64,000 nt of DNA from Escherichia phage Ec_MI-02, in the sequence record OP856590.1; one strand, 5' to 3'. This document shows, piece by piece, positions 24,838 to 30,835 of this stretch. A model generated the notes under the pieces. The model was given only the letters and a program-made list of their open reading frames with translations. It searched no databases and was not told where the DNA came from. Every line of letters starts with the position of its first letter. The stretch's first letter is position 1. The position numbers and the translations under genes were made by a program.

Positions 24838-25127
24838 TCAGTCTCCAATTTAATGTTCATAATTCTAGCGTATGATTGTGCCATCTCCGCGCCTCGCTCT
24901 ATACATTCAAAATCGGAAGAGCACGGGTCATTTTTATAAGTCGTTCGCATAAAACTATAGAACTGTTCAGATGATTCTACGCTTTTATTTTCAAAAAGCA
25001 TATAAACATGTCTAATACCAGATTCCATAAATTTATCAAAATGAGGATCGACATTCGCTTCAATCGGTGGAGATAAAACAAACGCTAATCCTAGCATGGC
25101 AAATAGTGCCGTTGCTTTTAAGGCCAT
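24834..25127 (-). CDS. Small secreted/periplasmic protein (signal peptide)
   Basis: 97 aa; N-terminal MALKATALFAMLGLAFVLSPPIEA signal-peptide-like segment; strong RBS AGGAGG; three cysteines in the mature part. Confidence 0.6.
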   Translation of the reverse strand: MALKATALFAMLGLAFVLSPPIEANVDPHFDKFMESGIRHVYMLFENKSVESSEQFYSFMRTTYKNDPCSSDFECIERGAEMAQSYARIMNIKLETE

Positions 25128-25139
25128 AAAGGCCTCCTA

Positions 25140-25352
25140 TCATTTTTGTCCTGTATTTACTTTATGCCGATGCACGGCCTTAACTTTATCAAGGTATTTT
25201 TCAAAATTTCGCAATCTAGTATAGTCTGCCGGAGATTGGTTGAGTGATACTTCTCGACGCAAAGCTGAAATGATATTTCCAACTTCCCTACGAATTTCAT
25301 CTAATTGAAGAACAGTAAGATTGCGAAGTTGCTTTTCAGTTAATTGTAGCAT
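25140..25352 (-). CDS. Hypothetical small basic protein
   Basis: 70-aa ORF, ATG start, immediately downstream of tk. Confidence 0.5.
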
Positions 25353-25394
25353 ATATACCCCTTTAGTTAGATAAACCTATTTATAACTTTTGCA

Positions 25395-25976
25395 CTAACC
25401 GAGCTTTTTAGTTAATTCATTCCAGTGTTTTCTACACAAAGAAACATAAATTTCATCACCAATACAGATTTGATTACCTTCTTTAACTGGTGTTCCATCT
25501 TCCATTAATCGAGCTGTCATAATCGCTTTTTTACCACAATGACAAACTGCTTTTAGTTCAATAAGTTTATCTGCAATCGCCAAAAGTTCTTTAGAACCTT
25601 CAAATAATTTTCCAGCGAAATCAGTCCTTAGACCATAAGCCATAACAGGAACATTATATGTATCAACAATTCGGCTTAATTGATGCACCTGTTCAGTTTT
25701 TAAAAACTGGGCTTCATCTACAAATACACAATGAATATCTTTTTGTGCTTCTGCCCATTTATAGAACTCAAAAATATCCATATCATCCGTAATAATATTC
25801 GCTTCCTGTTTAATTCCAATGCGAGAAACGACTTCACAGACAGAATCGCGAGTATCAATAGCAGGCTTAAGAACTAATACACCCATTCCGCGTTCTTTAT
25901 AATTGTGTGCAGCAGTCAAAAGAGAAGCAGATTTTCCAGCATTCATTGCTGCATAAGTAAAAATTAAACTCGCCAT
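25395..25976 (-). CDS. tk: Thymidine kinase
   Basis: 193 aa; P-loop MNAGKS; C-terminal zinc-binding cysteines (CHCGKK...CRKH); matches T4 Tk length and N-terminus as recalled. Confidence 0.95.
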   Translation of the reverse strand: MASLIFTYAAMNAGKSASLLTAAHNYKERGMGVLVLKPAIDTRDSVCEVVSRIGIKQEANIITDDMDIFEFYKWAEAQKDIHCVFVDEAQFLKTEQVHQLSRIVDTYNVPVMAYGLRTDFAGKLFEGSKELLAIADKLIELKAVCHCGKKAIMTARLMEDGTPVKEGNQICIGDEIYVSLCRKHWNELTKKLG

Positions 25977-25977
25977 C

Positions 25978-26166
25978 TTAGTCCTTAGTTAAATTTTCTA
26001 AATATGTTTCTAAATCATTTTCAGCTTTATCGATAGATTTTACTAATTCGTAATATGTTTTGGCATCTCCGTATTCAGAAGATATTTCAAAAGACAAATC
26101 CTTTTCTAAACTAATAATTTCACCAACTAAAAATAATATTTCGTTCTTTTGTTCGCGAGTAATCAT
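25978..26166 (-). CDS. Small acidic protein, MxTREQ family member
   Basis: 62 aa MITREQKNEILFLVGEIISLEKDL..., ATG start. Confidence 0.5.
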   Translation of the reverse strand: MITREQKNEILFLVGEIISLEKDLSFEISSEYGDAKTYYELVKSIDKAENDLETYLENLTKD

Positions 26167-26348
26167 AAGGAATTTATATAATTAATAAGTTCTTGTTCTT
26201 TATCGTCGAAATCTTTACACAGTTCTTCGTATTCGTCGGTATTAAAAGGACCGCATTCATCACAAACTTTTTCCAATTCGCTATTTTTATCCATAACTTC
26301 GTGAATAAGAGAAAATAGTCTGTCTTTTTGTTCTTTGCTTAGGCTCAC
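26163..26348 (-). CDS. Small acidic protein, related to the MxTREQ family
   Basis: 61 aa (M)SLSKEQKDRLFSLIHEV...; GTG start overlapping the upstream stop (GTGA). Confidence 0.45.
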   Translation of the reverse strand: MSLSKEQKDRLFSLIHEVMDKNSELEKVCDECGPFNTDEYEELCKDFDDKEQELINYINSL

Positions 26349-26521
26349 AGTATGTCAATCCCCAAAAGTTTTAAAATGACTCGTTTCTGATTCATAACCG
26401 CTACGATTGAATGACCGTTGGGGTCTTTTTGACCTGATCCAATTATAAATCCTTTTTGCGCAGAAAGTTCAATCAAAACATCAAGTTCACGTAATAATTG
26501 ATATTTTAGATCATCGTTCAT
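26345..26521 (-). CDS. Hypothetical small protein (58 aa, below ORF-track cutoff)
   Basis: Manual translation MNDDLKYQLLRELDVLIELSAQKGFIIGSGQKDPNGHSIVAVMNQKRVILKLLGIDIL; ATGA overlap with upstream stop and GTGA overlap with downstream start. Confidence 0.4.
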   Translation of the reverse strand: MNDDLKYQLLRELDVLIELSAQKGFIIGSGQKDPNGHSIVAVMNQKRVILKLLGIDIL

Positions 26522-26730
26522 TTTGGTTTACCTTCTTTAACGAAATCAGGATAAGGATAAAATCCTGAATAAAATCCTTCACCTTTATGATTGATGCATC
26601 CTTTATTAGAACAATAGCACCAATAATCGAAATCACAAGCCATTTCATCATTACATAAAGCAAAAACAACCGGCCATTCACACTTTTCGCAGTGGGCATT
26701 TTTAAGAATACTAGTTTGGCTCATAACCAT
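26518..26730 (-). CDS. Small cysteine-rich protein (possible zinc-binding)
   Basis: ORF track starts at TTG 26745; ATG at 26730 gives 70 aa with nine cysteines (CEKCEW...CNDEMACDFDYWCYCSNKGC). Confidence 0.5.
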   Translation of the reverse strand: MVMSQTSILKNAHCEKCEWPVVFALCNDEMACDFDYWCYCSNKGCINHKGEGFYSGFYPYPDFVKEGKPK

Positions 26731-26933
26731 GTAACCTTTAAGCAATATTCTTCTACATGTTGTTTACGACCTTTCTTATCAATAAAGGTATATTCAACGA
26801 ATGTTCCAATATAGTCTTTATCTACATCATGTGGACTATTAATTGGGCATTTAGTACGGCAAATGCGTTCCCATTGACGAATAATTTCCACTTTGTTTTT
26901 AGGATCAAACGGATGCGGGTAATGTACTTTCAT
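26721..26933 (-). CDS. Hypothetical small protein
   Basis: 70 aa, ATG start with GGTGG RBS. Confidence 0.5.
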   Translation of the reverse strand: MKVHYPHPFDPKNKVEIIRQWERICRTKCPINSPHDVDKDYIGTFVEYTFIDKKGRKQHVEEYCLKVTWL

Positions 26934-27384
26934 AATCCACCACTATTAAATCAATATCAGGAGTAAACATGTCAATTAATTTAGAAACCTTATCCCAATC
27001 ACCACCAGCAATACCGCAACCTATGCGTGGAATGTAAATTACTGGTTTAAACAAAAGGGTTTCTGCCTGTAGATTTAATTCTATCATGCAATTTACTAAA
27101 GCACCATAATCAAGATTAGGACCCGGTTCGTATTGCGTATACAAATTATAGCACATACTAAATCCTGTAGGATTATGTTTAAAAACAATAGACATATCGC
27201 CTAATTTATCACGAGAACCGTACTCGGTAGTGGTTTTATCTATTTCTAAAATTTTGGGATAGGCTCTTGCTAATTGACCCGCTACGCCAGAGCCCATTGT
27301 GTGGAAGCAATTGCACCCGTGCGCAATAATATTACCTTGAAGAAATAGGGCGACAATATCGCCCTTGATATATTTTACAATCAT
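26905..27384 (-). CDS. Macro domain protein (TARG1/OARD1/DarG-like ADP-ribose hydrolase fold)
   Basis: 159 aa; KGDIVALFLQGNIIAHGCNCFHTMGSGVAGQLARAYP and IPRIGCGIAGGDWDKV align by eye with the TARG1/C6orf130 macro-domain blocks (KGDLF...AHCIS...MGAGIA and PRIGCGLDRLQWE). Confidence 0.7.
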   Translation of the reverse strand: MIVKYIKGDIVALFLQGNIIAHGCNCFHTMGSGVAGQLARAYPKILEIDKTTTEYGSRDKLGDMSIVFKHNPTGFSMCYNLYTQYEPGPNLDYGALVNCMIELNLQAETLLFKPVIYIPRIGCGIAGGDWDKVSKLIDMFTPDIDLIVVDYESTLPASV

Positions 27385-27728
27385 CTAGTACTCAATCCTC
27401 GATTATAAGAATCTACTAAACGGTCAACCATTGAATGACAAGCGGCTTTATCTTTCTCCTCCGCAACTGAACATTCTAAGGTATTCCACTTTTTAGCATA
27501 TCGCTTTAACAATGTATCATTTTTGTATCTGCTTGATTTATCTCTTTCTCCGTCTTTATATGCATATATTAATTTCTGTGCAAATTCAGCTTGGCATGCT
27601 TTATTTTTCCCGCAATAATCCGCGGCAGTACGATTTACATACTCTCTAATTTCAGTATATGATGTATCTGCTGATGCAGAAGCAGAAAATGAAATTAATC
27701 CTATACATAAAACCAAAATTTTAGTCAT
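27381..27728 (-). CDS. Small secreted/periplasmic protein (signal peptide; T4 vs position)
   Basis: 115 aa; N-terminal MTKILVLCIGLISFSASASA signal peptide; four cysteines in mature part. Confidence 0.6.
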   Translation of the reverse strand: MTKILVLCIGLISFSASASADTSYTEIREYVNRTAADYCGKNKACQAEFAQKLIYAYKDGERDKSSRYKNDTLLKRYAKKWNTLECSVAEEKDKAACHSMVDRLVDSYNRGLSTR

Positions 27729-28266
27729 TTACTATTTCCAAAAGTTTATTATTTTTAAGGTAATTAGCCTTTTCTAGGACTTCAGAAGCATATTTAGAAC
27801 CTGCTTTAACATTCCATCCCGAATTATAAGAGGATATTGCTTTTCTTATATCGCCCTTATGTATATTTAACCAATAAGAAAGTTCAATGTACGCCCAGGA
27901 AGCTGAATTGGACCGTTTATTCAACATTCTTTTTATTTCAGCATCGGTCATATTATAACCAAGTTCCTTAACTCTTGCTCGCATGGTCGGCAAATAATTT
28001 TGGAACATTCCATAGGCATGATGCTTTGGTTTAGATTTTAAATTAACTCCGGCAGAGCTTTCTTGCCATAAAATAGCAGCCATTATATGACCCAATCCGC
28101 TCTTGTGGATATTTTTGTGTGTTTTATATTTTCCATCCTTAGAAAATTGTTCCCCGAATTGATATGCGTAACGCATGTTATCGAGTTGGACATTACTGAA
28201 AGTATGCTCGGAGCTATGTGCCATCATTGAAATGGCCAATAGACCAGCGAGTAGTGCTTTTCTCAT
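27721..28266 (-). CDS. Periplasmic lytic transglycosylase-like protein (SLT motifs)
   Basis: 181 aa; signal peptide MRKALLAGLLAISMMAHS; SLT-type motifs ILWQESS (catalytic Glu-Ser), GMFQ and SYNSG. Confidence 0.65.
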   Translation of the reverse strand: MRKALLAGLLAISMMAHSSEHTFSNVQLDNMRYAYQFGEQFSKDGKYKTHKNIHKSGLGHIMAAILWQESSAGVNLKSKPKHHAYGMFQNYLPTMRARVKELGYNMTDAEIKRMLNKRSNSASWAYIELSYWLNIHKGDIRKAISSYNSGWNVKAGSKYASEVLEKANYLKNNKLLEIVND

Positions 28267-28273
28267 GCTTACC

Positions 28274-28735
28274 TCATTGAGTTTTAATTACTGCTTTAGA
28301 AGCCTTTCCTGGTAAACGACGACTGTTGATAATTGCCATCCTGCATTGAAGCGACGGGTCTTTGAACTTTGCATTAGGTTTACAAACTGTAAATCCAAGC
28401 CAAAGATTTCCATCTGTGATTTCTAAACGCCCAGGACGATATTCAACCCCATCAATAAAATCCTCGTCAATGTCAGGACGCGGAGGCATACTCAGGAATT
28501 CATTAACTTCTAAAACATGGTCTTTTATTTTGTGGAATAATTCAAAAACATATGTCTCATCAATCTCCCGTTGAATTGCACGATCAAGAAGATGCTGAGA
28601 ATATTTTAGATGAAACGATGAGACCCCTGCTGCTTTTGATGCCTCACGAATCTCATTGTTAATTTGACGAAACTCCGACTCAAAGTGACGACGAAGCTTA
28701 TTTCGACGGATAAAAACTTCTGTGTTGATAGTCAT
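28274..28735 (-). CDS. regB: Site-specific endoribonuclease RegB
   Basis: 153 aa MTINTEVFIRRNKLRRHFESEFRQINNEIREASKAAG...; matches T4 RegB length and sequence as recalled. Confidence 0.9.
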   Translation of the reverse strand: MTINTEVFIRRNKLRRHFESEFRQINNEIREASKAAGVSSFHLKYSQHLLDRAIQREIDETYVFELFHKIKDHVLEVNEFLSMPPRPDIDEDFIDGVEYRPGRLEITDGNLWLGFTVCKPNAKFKDPSLQCRMAIINSRRLPGKASKAVIKTQ

Positions 28736-28762
28736 GTTATTCTCCTCTTAACTGATAGAAAA

Positions 28763-28792
28763 ATTATACCACAGTCAAGAGGAAAAGTAAAC
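28763..28792 (-). promoter_or_regulatory. T4-type early promoter upstream of regB
   Basis: Minus strand GTTTACT-17 bp-TGG TATAAT, about 25 nt upstream of the regB ATG. Confidence 0.6.
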
Positions 28793-28794
28793 AG

Positions 28795-29073
28795 TTATTC
28801 TTTAAATCTAATCAATTTATTCATAGACTTTGAAACTTCTGCACGGACCTCATGCAGGTTTTTAAGCTGTTCAAGACGTTGCTCATAGTAAGCAATTTCA
28901 TCTTCTTCAAGACAGTCCTGTGAATCTTCTTTAAGATAACGCGCATAGTCCTGGAAAGCTTTACGGACTACTTCTTGGAAGTCATCAAGACTTTGAATTT
29001 TCTTAGGAGCAACAGATACACGACGAGGGGCAGTATAATACTCATAACCAAACCCTGCGCTTAATTGAGCCAT
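28795..29073 (-). CDS. Hypothetical protein (T4 vs.3 position)
   Basis: ORF track starts at GTG 29115; ATG at 29073 with GAGGAAAA RBS overlaps the upstream stop (TAATG) and gives 92 aa. Confidence 0.55.
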
Positions 29074-29339
29074 TAATATTTTTCCTCTGGTTGGAACACA
29101 GCACGACAAGCCCACATACTGGCTTCTTTGAGTTTCGTTTTAGCAATAGTTAACTGATCGAGGCTTTCAGCATAATTCTTCGCGAATTCACAGTCTTCAC
29201 AATTATCTAGTGCTTCCCAAAATTCATCGTATAAAGCGTCAAAGATAAGTCCTAAACGAACTTCAGCATCTTTGATAGCATTCACTTTACCGATTTTCTC
29301 TTCAGTATGTGGCTTATAACCTTTAATATCTTCAATCAT
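29073..29339 (-). CDS. Putative Acb2-like cyclic-oligonucleotide sponge (T4 vs.4 position)
   Basis: ORF track starts at TTG 29375; ATG at 29339 with GAGGA RBS gives 88 aa [52 protein letters not shown]... Assignment is by synteny with regB and the GrcA-like vs.6 gene. Confidence 0.55.
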
Positions 29340-29553
29340 ATTTGACTTCCTCACCAGTACATAAATCATATTCAACTAAACGAATAGGTTCATGAATGCC
29401 ATATCCTTGAACAGAAATTTCTGTCGTAGGATAAATTCCATCAATATCACCCATGGTCCATGCTTCATTAAATTGCTGTTCGCCTGAATTACTAAACCAC
29501 TCGGCGAAAGCATTTAACACATCTTTAGAACCTTCAATAATTATCTTTGCCAT
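29332..29553 (-). CDS. Hypothetical small acidic protein (vs.5 position)
   Basis: 73-aa ORF, ATG start overlapping upstream stop (TAATG). Confidence 0.55.
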   Translation of the reverse strand: MAKIIIEGSKDVLNAFAEWFSNSGEQQFNEAWTMGDIDGIYPTTEISVQGYGIHEPIRLVEYDLCTGEEVKYD

Positions 29554-29915
29554 TACAAGCTCTCAGTAAAGGTACGAGCGATAACGTCGCGCTGCTGTTC
29601 CGGAGTCAGAGAGTTAAAGCGAACTGCATAACCGGATACACGGATGGTCAGCTGCGGATATTTTTCCGGATGCTTAACTGCATCTTCCAGAGTTTCACGA
29701 CGCAGAACGTTAACGTTCAGGTGTTGACCACCTTCAATTTTAACTGTAGGATGTGATTCAATTTCAATTTCACGGGTGTGCAAACCGTAGAAAATTTCTG
29801 GGTCTACAAAAGAGTCCTCTTTAAAGGTTTTAGAAACAATAATTCGTGCTTGAATACCATCTTCAAAATAAATAGTACCTTTATGTGTGCCTTCAAGAAT
29901 TTGATATGCTTTCAT
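29553..29915 (-). CDS. Autonomous glycyl-radical cofactor (GrcA/YfiD-like; T4 Y06I/vs.6)
   Basis: 120 aa; C-terminal 57 residues [59 protein letters not shown] carry the glycyl-radical signature RVSGYAVRF and match E. coli GrcA as recalled. Confidence 0.85.
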
Positions 29916-29921
29916 ATAACC

Positions 29922-30251
29922 TCAATTAGAAAATAAATTTATCCAAGACTGTTCTTTAATTAAAAATGGCTCAGAATCATATGCCATTAAACTTTGGGTG
30001 ATTAGTCCTTTAAAAGGTCCATCAATAAATTCCATGGTAAAATATGGAATTTTATTCATTAATCTTGCATTAGGAGCAGTACACAAAACTCTGCATCCTT
30101 TGAATACACCTTTTTGTAATTTGTATTGCTTAGGATAAAATTCGCTCAAGACATTATTATTTGCCAAAATTTCAAAATGATTCACCAATTTATTTTTAAT
30201 AGTTTTTGGCGAAAAATAAAGATATTCGAAAAGCTGTGTGTCTGTCATCAT
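29922..30251 (-). CDS. Hypothetical protein (vs.7 position)
   Basis: ORF track 29922..30302; ATG pair at 30251/30248 overlaps the upstream stop (ATGATGA), giving about 109 aa; start choice uncertain. Confidence 0.5.
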   Translation of the reverse strand: MMTDTQLFEYLYFSPKTIKNKLVNHFEILANNNVLSEFYPKQYKLQKGVFKGCRVLCTAPNARLMNKIPYFTMEFIDGPFKGLITQSLMAYDSEPFLIKEQSWINLFSN

Positions 30252-30835
30252 TGCATTCCGATCACAAAAAATTGAGGACGAGTAATACCACCGGTGCAAC
30301 ATTTACTATTGCAACAGTATTGTACAGTTTCAATATGAATATCGTAAATTTTATCCATATCGGGAGATTTAACAGGCTCATCGATTATATACAAAATCCG
30401 CGAAAGCGATAAACCTCTGAACTTGCTGCCTCTATTACCGATAAAACTACGGACAGAATCAGTAAATAAACGAAAACGTATATCATCACTAGAATAACGA
30501 GAAAATTCTTTTTTAATGTGGCCTGCAGAAATTTTAGCGTAAGCTGAAGTATTAGAAAGAACAATAACTGTTCCACCGTCATACAGCCAATTAGCAGCAA
30601 AGTTAGTCACAGCAGTTGATTTACCAGATTGGCGTCCACCATCTAGTCGAAGTGTACAATATTGTTTAAGCAAGTCTTCAAATGGTGGAATATAATCGTT
30701 TTTACAAATTTCTTCTACTCTAGCATCAGAATGGTGTGTAAAAGCATTCATCAGGGATAGATAAGGACCAGTTAAAAATGTTCTCATTTTATTCTCTCTA
30801 AATTTGGGCCATTCCATGGCGCATGAATTGTCCAT
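30248..30835 (-). CDS. Small P-loop NTPase of unknown function (vs.8 position)
   Basis: Up to 195 aa; Walker A LDGGRQSGKSTA and Walker B-like ILYIIDEP; start uncertain (ATGs at 30835, 30817, 30787). Confidence 0.6.
   Translation of the reverse strand: MDNSCAMEWPKFRENKMRTFLTGPYLSLMNAFTHHSDARVEEICKNDYIPPFEDLLKQYCTLRLDGGRQSGKSTAVTNFAANWLYDGGTVIVLSNTSAYAKISAGHIKKEFSRYSSDDIRFRLFTDSVRSFIGNRGSKFRGLSLSRILYIIDEPVKSPDMDKIYDIHIETVQYCCNSKCCTGGITRPQFFVIGMQ

What the first reader, a model, noticed from the sequence alone, without database searches (positions are those of the whole stretch)
26905..27384. Phage-encoded TARG1/DarG-like macro domain: candidate counter-defence against ADP-ribosylation
The 159-aa product carries the two hallmark blocks of the TARG1/OARD1 macro-domain family (KGDIV...AHGCNCFHTMGSGVAGQLA and IPRIGCGIAGGDWDKV), the same fold the DarG antitoxin uses to remove ADP-ribose from DNA. 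DarT-type toxins defend against phage by ADP-ribosylating phage DNA. A compact phage macro domain expressed from the early gene block is therefore a plausible DarG mimic, or a hydrolase of other ADP-ribose-based signals or protein marks. I do not recall a macro domain protein being characterised in T4.
Basis: partly seen in the sequence, partly recalled or inferred. Interest (0 to 1): 0.75.

Follow-up and report, generated by a model that had tools for sequence, protein, structure and literature searches.

The report
T4-type phage anti-DarT macrodomain (Tk.4/AdfM)

Summary

The window is a Tequatrovirus, 99.5% identical to Shigella phage pSs-1. The gene sits between vs and tk.3, which is the tk.4 slot of T4.

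A Nov-2025 bioRxiv preprint (HIDEN-SEQ) found T4 tk.4 to be the only gene needed to grow on a DarTG2 host and named it adfM. A 2026 Cell Reports paper showed that a PhiKZ macrodomain removes thymidine-ADP-ribose from DNA.

Three points are added here:
1. The TARG1/DarG catalytic Lys (and the TARG1 Asp) are absent. An invariant Gln84 (120/120 homologues) takes the Lys position, as in Streptomyces SCO6735, a proven Lys-independent thymidine-ADPr DNA hydrolase.
2. It is not a DarG. It has no C-terminal domain and no darT neighbour. It is also a different subclass from PhiKZ AdfM.
3. This allele is only 58% identical to T4's, with dS about 1.7, inside about 97%-identical flanks. That pattern indicates a swapped cassette. 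This allele itself is untested.

Interest is low to moderate.

The parts
26905..27384 (-). tk.4/adfM-type macrodomain gene, 159 aa
   Evidence: ORF. Pfam Macro above its gathering score. AF2 pLDDT 94.6. 58% identity, E=8e-71 to T4 Tk.4.
27397..27400 (-). GAGG Shine-Dalgarno-like element upstream of the ATG
   Evidence: Read from the sequence. The same element is annotated as a potential rRNA binding site for ORF 60.5 in T4 record X04567.
27381..27384 (-). ATGA overlap of the vs stop codon with the macro start codon (translational coupling)
   Evidence: ORF coordinates. The same junction occurs in T4, Dhakavirus VR5 and a Klebsiella T4-like phage; in Mosigvirus Bas47 the annotated overlap with vs is 8 nt.
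27280..27321 (-). Loop 1: H22-G-C-N25-C-F-H-T-M-G-S-G-V-A35 (substrate-binding loop; Asn25 matches DarG Asn22 and SCO6735 Asn27; His22 matches SCO6735 His24)
   Evidence: Translation. H22 and N25 present in 118/118 homologues. hhalign against DarG. Residue roles from PMC9411070.
27133..27147 (-). N80-L-Y-T-Q84 motif; Gln84 occupies the position of the catalytic Lys of TARG1 (K84) and DarG (K80)
   Evidence: Translation. HMM alignment to TARG1, MAFFT, hhalign to DarG at 99.2% probability. Q84 present in 120/120 homologues.
26995..27030 (-). Phosphate-binding loop P119-R-I-G-C-G-I-A-G-G-D-W130; Ala126 is at the position of TARG1 Asp125
   Evidence: Translation. Aligns with SCO6735 LPRIGCGLAGGTW and Bt_1257 MPRIGCGLAGGKW and with TARG1 PRIGCGLDRLQW.
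26905..26933 (-). 29-nt overlap of the macro 3' end with the tk.3 start. It encodes a low-confidence tail (ESTLPASV) that T4 Tk.4 lacks
   Evidence: ORF coordinates. DNA alignment with T4 shows a 13-nt gap at the junction. pLDDT is below 50 for residues 157-159.
26890..27348 (-). Divergent cassette relative to T4 (about 58% DNA identity) between near-identical flanks
   Evidence: Sliding identity and per-gene identity. dS 1.70 for the macro gene, 0.17 for vs and 0.59 for tk.3.
27381..27728 (-). vs (valyl-tRNA synthetase modifier), upstream neighbour, 100% aa identity to T4
26721..26933 (-). tk.3 homologue (DUF7202), downstream neighbour

Best explanation
The gene is the tk.4/adfM orthologue of a pSs-1-like Tequatrovirus. 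It encodes a stand-alone ALC1-like (TARG1/DarG/SCO6735 class) macrodomain made from the same-strand vs-tk.4-tk.3 block.

Proposed mechanism: when a host DarT2 toxin ADP-ribosylates thymidines in single-stranded phage DNA and so blocks replication, the enzyme binds the ADP-ribose in its cleft (loop 1 HGCNC...MGSG and the phosphate loop PRIGCGIAGGDW). It then hydrolyses the thymine-ribose bond, restoring the base.

The chemistry is probably not the Lys (or Lys/Asp) route of TARG1 and DarG. It is more likely the Lys-independent route described for SCO6735. In that route Gln84, held in place by Asn25, positions the distal ribose and the transition state, and a water held by the backbone after His22 starts the cleavage.

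Shown here: the domain, fold, class, active-site residues, synteny and allelic replacement. Shown elsewhere: the T4 orthologue is needed against DarTG2, and SCO6735 (Gln type) cleaves T-ADPr DNA. Inferred: this allele has the same activity and uses this chemistry.
For: - Orthology: same slot between vs and tk.3, ATGA-coupled to vs, 58% identity, E=8e-71 to T4 Tk.4. The synteny is kept in Dhakavirus, Mosigvirus and Klebsiella T4-like phages.
- Genetics of the orthologue: T4 tk.4 was the single hit on DarTG2 and the knockout was sensitised. T4 lacking adfA and adfN was still DarTG2-resistant, so another factor was expected.
- Active site: Gln84 120/120, Asn25 and His22 118/118, Gly122/Gly124 119/120. 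This matches the SCO6735 residues whose mutation kills or cripples T-ADPr hydrolysis (Q85A, N27S, G128E); H24Y also lost activity, but through disrupted structure, so it is uninformative. SCO6735 also rescues cells from DarT toxicity.
- The acidic pI of 5.0 is not an objection: the PhiKZ-type AdfM, which de-ADP-ribosylates DNA in vitro, has pI 5.05.
Against: - No experiment exists on this allele, and 42% of residues differ from the tested T4 protein. The differences include 4 positions in the phosphate loop (GCGIAGGDW here, GAGIGKGNW in T4).
- The T4 evidence is a preprint. It is genetic only; neither hydrolase activity nor a catalytic mutant was reported.
- The family lacks the long Lys-bearing 'mobile loop' that SCO6735 uses to hold DNA.
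- The catalytic Lys required in DarG, TARG1 and PhiKZ AdfM is missing.
- I could not inspect the model's coordinates, so residue equivalence rests on sequence and profile alignments.
Confidence: 0.7

Rival explanations
1. Protection works mainly by binding and blocking the DarT2 toxin, or by shielding ADP-ribosylated DNA, rather than by hydrolysis. On this reading the allelic diversity tracks different DarT2 variants.
For: Catalytically dead SCO6735 Q85A still inhibits DarT in vitro, more strongly than DarG K80A or TARG1 K84A. The T4 study did not test a catalytic mutant. The locus is strongly polymorphic inside conserved flanks.
Against: All ADP-ribose-binding and catalytic-type residues are invariant over 120 homologues down to about 40% identity. 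This argues that enzymatic function is under selection. dN/dS of about 0.23 shows no sign of diversifying selection overall. The protein has no DarG-like C-terminal toxin-binding domain.
Confidence: 0.1
2. It is a general ADP-ribose 'eraser' whose main substrate is not DarT2-modified DNA. Candidates are uracil-ADPr on RNA, Glu/Asp-linked protein ADP-ribosylation (from the host or from T4's own Alt/ModA/ModB system), O-acetyl-ADP-ribose, or ADP-ribose-derived immune signals.
For: SCO6735 also removes protein (PARP1 E988Q) ADPr and U-ADPr from RNA, as do TARG1 and DarG. The family is present in 2767 phage records of many hosts, far more than the 286 with a DarG-type macrodomain. In some Vibrio phages the gene lies next to a ribose-phosphate pyrophosphokinase-like gene. 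Stand-alone bacterial homologues have no darT neighbour.
Against: In T4 the only phenotype found so far is DarTG2 sensitivity, and the gene is dispensable on plain K-12. A laboratory T4 mutant clone carries a broken copy. Alt, ModA and ModB modify arginine, which ALC1-like macrodomains are not known to cleave (my own knowledge, not tested here).
Confidence: 0.12
3. It is an ADP-ribose-1''-phosphate phosphatase (Poa1p-like), as the database label 'phosphatase' implies. On this reading it clears a by-product of RNA 2'-phosphate removal.
Against: The label comes from domain naming, not from an assay. Poa1p does not align over the NLYTQ region in the sequence search, and from my recalled Poa1p sequence (not checked against a tool) it has Ser at the Gln84 position. 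No Tpt1-type 2'-phosphotransferase pathway is known to be needed by T4 (my own knowledge). The phosphatase reading does not explain the DarTG2 phenotype.
Confidence: 0.05

Closest known systems
T4 Tk.4 = AdfM (anti-DarT factor Macrodomain), bioRxiv 10.1101/2025.11.20.689424
   Same: Same genomic slot (vs / tk.4 / tk.3) and the same ATGA coupling to vs. Same length class (155 vs 159 aa), 58% identity. All family-invariant residues are shared, including H22, N25, N80, Y82, Q84, G122, G124 and W130.
   Different: 42% of residues differ and synonymous sites are saturated (dS 1.7), while the flanks are 90-97% identical, so this is a replaced allele. The phosphate loop is GCGIAGGDW here and GAGIGKGNW in T4. 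This allele carries an extra 8-residue tail from a 29-nt overlap with tk.3. It has not been tested experimentally.
Streptomyces coelicolor SCO6735 and Bacteroides Bt_1257 (Gln-type subclass of ALC1-like macrodomains; PDB 5E3B, 2FG1/2AFC)
   Different: The 'mobile loop' after the Gln is 5-6 residues shorter here (QYEPGPNLDY vs QHGIYKDSKGLPPIRY) and lacks the DNA-holding Lys89/Lys93. The window protein is acidic (pI 5.0), whereas Bt_1257 has pI 8.7. The context is a phage early-region gene rather than a DNA-damage-inducible bacterial gene.
DarG (DarG2) antitoxin macrodomain (Thermus aquaticus 5M31/5M3E, M. tuberculosis 5M3I)
   Different: Catalytic Lys80 is replaced by Gln84. There is no C-terminal DarT-binding domain (159 aa; the NCBIfam DarG model scores 28.9 bits against a cut-off of 250). 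There is no adjacent darT gene.
PhiKZ gp104 AdfM (chimallivirus DarG2-like antitoxin; Cell Rep 2026, PMC13309987)
   Same: Phage-encoded single macrodomain of about 160 aa, acidic, used against DarTG2, and given the same name AdfM.
   Different: PhiKZ AdfM is the Lys type (N23 and K78 in an FPTK motif) and is close to DarG. It shares only a weak local BLAST match with the window protein (27% over 33 aa, E=0.001). DarG-type macrodomains occur in 286 phage records, the Tk.4 type in 2767. The two 'AdfM' proteins are separate recruitments from different subclasses.
Human TARG1/OARD1 (PDB 4J5Q/R/S)
   Same: Top Foldseek match (E about 1e-9, TM 0.8). It shares the KGD start, the AH..MG.G loop and the PRIGCG loop, and it also cleaves T-ADPr DNA.
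   Different: The Lys84/Asp125 catalytic dyad is Gln84/Ala126 here. Identity is about 20%.

Membership tests
Macro domain superfamily (Pfam PF01661) | Profile match above the curated gathering score | tested here: met
   33.8 bits against a cut-off of 22, E=3.7e-8, covering residues 22-136
Macro domain superfamily (Pfam PF01661) | Three-layer alpha/beta/alpha macro fold | tested here: met
ALC1-like / TARG1-like macrodomain class | Closest sequence and structural relatives are TARG1, DarG, Poa1p and SCO6735/Bt_1257 rather than MacroD, viral or PARG types | tested here: met
TARG1 (OARD1) proper | Catalytic Lys84/Asp125 dyad | tested here: not met
   Gln84 and Ala126 are at the aligned positions.
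DarG antitoxin (DarTG2) | Catalytic Lys80 in the F-P-T-K motif | tested here: not met
   NLYTQ aligns with NFPTK, so Gln84 aligns with Lys80 (hhalign 99.2%; MAFFT).
DarG antitoxin (DarTG2) | Active-site Asn22 | tested here: met
   Asn25 aligns with it and is invariant.
DarG antitoxin (DarTG2) | C-terminal DarT-binding domain, protein of about 340-350 aa | tested here: not met
   The protein is 159 aa. The NCBIfam DarG equivalog scores 28.9 bits against a cut-off of 250 and matches only profile positions 2-142 of 338. Compare a real DarG of 352 aa.
DarG antitoxin (DarTG2) | Adjacent darT (DUF4433) toxin gene | tested here: not met
   The neighbours are vs and tk.3.
SCO6735/Bt_1257 Gln-type subclass | Gln at the catalytic-Lys position, fixed by the loop-1 Asn | tested here: met
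   Q84 in 120/120 and N25 in 118/118 homologues. Equivalence to SCO6735 Gln85/Asn27 follows from the paper's structure-based alignment with Bt_1257, TARG1 and DarG and from my alignments.
SCO6735/Bt_1257 Gln-type subclass | Phosphate-binding loop PRIGCGLAGGxW | tested here: met
   IPRIGCGIAGGDW aligns with LPRIGCGLAGGTW (SCO6735) and MPRIGCGLAGGKW (Bt_1257).
SCO6735/Bt_1257 Gln-type subclass | Mobile loop five residues longer than in DarG/TARG1, carrying Lys89/Lys93 | tested here: not met
   Bt_1257 has a 6-residue insertion relative to the Tk.4 family profile. The window loop is QYEPGPNLDY with no Lys.
SCO6735/Bt_1257 Gln-type subclass | Hydrolysis of thymidine-linked ADP-ribose on ssDNA | not testable with these tools
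   Needs a biochemical assay.
AdfM of T4 (Tk.4 type) | Orthologous position between vs and tk.3 in a Tevenvirinae genome, with significant full-length homology | tested here: met
AdfM of T4 (Tk.4 type) | Required for growth on a DarTG2-expressing host | not testable with these tools
   Shown only for the T4 allele.
AdfM of PhiKZ (gp104 type) | DarG-like sequence with N23 and K78 | tested here: not met
   A PhiKZ-like homologue has VNVVGVMG and FPTK. It gives only a 33-aa weak BLAST match to the window protein.
Poa1p ADP-ribose-1''-phosphate phosphatase | Poa1p active-site residues (His23, Ser30 and Phe152 were the ones mutated in PDB entries) | tested here: inconclusive
   His22 aligns with His23 in a shared HxCNC motif. 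The central region does not align by sequence, and the other residues were not mapped. The PDB entry titles are listed.

The most novel reading that the evidence does not exclude
The tk.4/adfM slot may be an allelic battleground. At least four deeply diverged alleles circulate among T-even phages inside near-identical flanks: window type, T4 type, Mosigvirus type and Dhakavirus type. On this reading the alleles differ in which ADP-ribosyl marks or DarT variants they neutralise, for example T-ADPr DNA versus U-ADPr RNA, or direct toxin binding. The Gln-type, short-loop Tk.4 family would then be a third, phage-adapted catalytic solution, distinct from both DarG (Lys) and SCO6735 (Gln plus a long Lys loop).
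Probability: 0.15. Interest if true: 0.55.

Novelty: new member of a known kind. Interest (0 to 1): 0.3.

Why it matters
DarTG systems are widespread anti-phage defences, and T-even phages are the main model and therapy-candidate phages of enterobacteria. Knowing that a given phage carries a functional adfM allele helps predict its host range on DarTG2-positive strains.

The practical value of this finding is limited, because the function of the T4 orthologue is already published. What remains useful is the observation that the T4-type AdfM family lacks the catalytic lysine and resembles SCO6735. This tells biochemists which mutants to make (Q84, N25) and warns against assuming DarG chemistry. 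The cassette-like polymorphism also suggests allele-swap experiments on specificity.

Tried and rejected
- Filing it as a DarG 'mimic' or orphan antitoxin. Rejected as membership: no Lys80, no C-terminal domain, no darT neighbour, and the score is far below the NCBIfam DarG cut-off. Bacterial relatives are stand-alone genes, e.g. in Pelagimonas with no darT nearby.
- Equating it with PhiKZ AdfM. Rejected: different subclass.
- The 'phosphatase' annotation. Traced to A1pp/Poa1p domain naming with no assay behind it, so ranked low.
- Promoter scan of 25300-30500. There was no enrichment over shuffles (20 found, 20.8 expected) and no convincing - strand promoter directly upstream of the gene. The best - strand hit is upstream of regB at 28763-28791. 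The 'early expression' claim was therefore not tested here.
- The low pI as an argument against DNA binding. Dropped, because the biochemically active PhiKZ-type AdfM is equally acidic.
- A literature search for 'AdfM' alone was swamped by journal DOIs.
- I could not read model coordinates, so no 3D check of residues around Gln84 was possible.
- The internal hairpin read as a terminator. Folding z-scores were only -1.2 to -2.3, so it is left as an observation.

Full report
**What is there**

The window is a Tequatrovirus genome segment. The stretch 25000-29500 is 99.5% identical to Shigella phage pSs-1 and 95-98% identical to hundreds of T4-like phages.

On the - strand lies a tight same-strand gene block: regB, vs.1, vs, the ORF in question, a tk.3 homologue, two small ORFs, tk.2, tk.1 and tk. 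The ORF at 26905..27384 starts with an ATG that overlaps the vs stop codon (ATGA). A GAGG lies 12 nt upstream.

In T4 the gene between vs and tk.3 is tk.4, which is 155 aa and annotated 'phosphatase; contains A1pp phosphatase motif'. The two proteins align end to end at 58% identity, E=8e-71. The vs-tk.4 junction is also kept in Dhakavirus VR5, Mosigvirus Bas47 and a Klebsiella T4-like phage.

**Is it a macro domain of the TARG1/DarG kind?**

Yes, on several lines of evidence:
- Pfam Macro scores 33.8 bits against a cut-off of 22.
- A 57-sequence family alignment gave an AlphaFold2 model with mean pLDDT 94.6 and pTM 0.89. Only the last three residues are disordered.
- Foldseek against the PDB puts TARG1 first (E about 1e-9, TM 0.8), followed by Poa1p, Bt_1257 and the DarG macrodomains of Thermus and Mycobacterium.
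- A profile of the family hits only this class in the PDB: Bt_1257 6e-20, TARG1 5e-17, SCO6735 5e-16, Poa1p 3e-14, Mtb DarG 1.5e-11, Taq DarG 1e-9.
- The DarG models are the best hits in the PADLOC and NCBIfam libraries, though far below the DarG equivalog cut-off (28.9 bits against 250).

**What is already known about it**

The A1pp/macro domain of tk.4 orthologues was noted in 2006 (PMC1524935).

[quoted passage not shown] It showed that a clean knockout sensitises T4, noted structural similarity to Mtb DarG, and named the gene adfM. Enzymatic removal of ADP-ribose from DNA was proposed but not assayed.

Independently, a 2026 Cell Reports paper named a PhiKZ macrodomain (gp104) AdfM. [quoted passage not shown]

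**What this analysis adds: the active site**

I recovered real DarG sequences from the PDB alignments of a plasmid DarG that sits next to a DUF4433 darT gene. I then aligned them with the family.

- DarG K80 lies in the motif N-F-P-T-K and TARG1 K84 in Y-L-I-T-K. The window protein has N-L-Y-T-Q at that position.
- This equivalence comes out of three methods: the HMM alignment to TARG1, MAFFT and a profile-profile alignment to five DarG-type macrodomains (99.2% probability).
- TARG1 Asp125 corresponds to Ala126.
- Gln84 is present in 120 of 120 homologues examined, as are Asn80 and Tyr82. His22 and Asn25 are present in 118 of 118.
- T4 Tk.4 has the same residues.

This is the arrangement described for Streptomyces SCO6735 and Bacteroides Bt_1257. 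In SCO6735, Gln85 is the structural equivalent of the catalytic lysine, and Q85A abolishes activity. N27S nearly abolishes activity, because Asn27 locks the Gln rotamer. The enzyme cleaves thymidine-ADPr DNA faster than DarG or TARG1, rescues E. coli and Streptomyces from DarT, and is proposed to use a backbone-held water instead of acid-base residues (PMC9411070).

The phosphate loop is nearly the same: IPRIGCGIAGGDW here, LPRIGCGLAGGTW in SCO6735 and MPRIGCGLAGGKW in Bt_1257.

One defining feature of that subclass is not met. Its 'mobile loop' after the Gln is 5-6 residues longer and carries the DNA-binding Lys89/Lys93, whereas the Tk.4 family has a short loop, like DarG and TARG1. The Tk.4 family is thus Gln-type in chemistry but short-looped. 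It is a different subclass from PhiKZ AdfM, which is Lys-type (FPTK) and shares only a weak 33-residue BLAST match with the window protein. In the phage database the Tk.4 type occurs in 2767 records and the DarG type in 286.

**What this analysis adds: the allele**

Against T4, vs is 96.8% identical in DNA and 100% in protein. The first roughly 37 nt of the macro gene are identical. The body of the gene then falls to about 58% DNA identity, and identity recovers to over 90% about 45 nt into tk.3.

Synonymous divergence (dS) is saturated in the macro gene at 1.70, with dN 0.39. It is 0.17 in vs and 0.59 in tk.3. This is the signature of a cassette replaced by recombination from a distant lineage, not of divergence in place. 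dN/dS of about 0.23 indicates a protein still under purifying selection.

Allele counts in the phage database:
- Window-type allele (>=90% identity): 312 records.
- About 60-80% relatives: 98 records, including Dhakavirus VR5.
- T4-type (>=95%): 221 records.
- Roughly 84%-to-T4 type found in Mosigvirus: 159 records.

At the 3' junction this allele lacks T4's ATGA stop/start arrangement. It reads 29 nt into tk.3, adding a disordered tail.

**Mechanism and confidence**

The best explanation (confidence about 0.7) is that the protein removes DarT2-type ADP-ribose from thymidines in phage single-stranded DNA by an SCO6735-like, lysine-independent mechanism, and so protects replication.

- Shown here: the domain, class, active-site make-up, orthology and allelic replacement.
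- Shown by others: the DarTG2 phenotype of the T4 orthologue, and the chemistry of a Gln-type relative.
- Inferred: the activity and specificity of this allele.

The rivals are protection by toxin binding rather than hydrolysis, a broader or different ADP-ribose substrate (RNA uracil, protein Glu/Asp, small molecules), and the annotated ADP-ribose-1''-phosphatase role. None is excluded, but each has less support.

**Verdict**

The finding is real and correctly interpreted, but it is a divergent member of a family whose function was published in 2025-2026. The residual interest lies in the missing catalytic lysine, which the preprint's text, as far as I searched it, does not mention, and in the cassette polymorphism.

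Noticed in passing
window 27347-27365 (- strand), codons 7-13 of the macro gene: There is a GC-rich hairpin, AGGGCGAUAUUGUCGCCCU (8-bp stem, 3-nt loop), followed by a U-rich run; the scan flagged it as terminator-like. It is conserved at the nucleotide level in both Tequatrovirus alleles, Dhakavirus VR5 (with a loop change only) and Mosigvirus Bas47, but is lost in a Klebsiella T4-like phage. Its 3' end coincides with the point where window/T4 identity breaks down. Folding z-scores are modest (-1.2 to -2.3). Its function is unknown: it could be an attenuator, an mRNA stabiliser or a recombination boundary.
   Followed up: partly
window 26345-26745 (- strand): Two small ORFs lie between tk.3 and tk.2 and are absent from T4 at this place. 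One is a Cys-rich 70-75 aa protein matching Pfam PF23895 'Phage zinc binding domain' (E=3e-29). The other is a 58-aa protein of phrog_3452 with unknown function. This is another sign that the region is mosaic.
   Followed up: partly
window 26721-26933 (- strand): The tk.3 homologue is a DUF7202 protein (Pfam E=1e-37). Its first 29 nt are read in another frame as the tail of the macro gene. The first roughly 45 nt of tk.3 are also more diverged from T4 than the rest of the gene.
   Followed up: partly
L013 (OL964745.1, 'Mutant Escherichia phage T4 clone T4_7t1'), locus 331-706: In this laboratory T4 mutant clone, tk.4 is annotated as two fragments, so it is disrupted. This fits with the gene being dispensable without DarTG2.
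   Followed up: no
H48 and H104 (Vibrio phages Quinn and VF16): In some Vibrio phages the Tk.4-type macrodomain gene lies next to a gene annotated as ribose-phosphate pyrophosphokinase. This could link the family to ADP-ribose/NAD salvage rather than DNA repair in those phages.
   Followed up: no
H73-H85 (Bacillus and cyanobacterial plasmids): Distant homologues on plasmids are annotated 'SLOG family protein', and one E. coli plasmid (CP057073) carries a 39%-identical unannotated copy. I did not examine their contexts.
   Followed up: no
window 28763-28791 (- strand): This is the best sigma-70-like promoter match on the gene's strand (TTTACT-17-TATAAT with an upstream TG). It lies just upstream of regB, so it may drive the regB-vs.1-vs-macro block. 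The scan as a whole was not enriched over shuffles.
   Followed up: no
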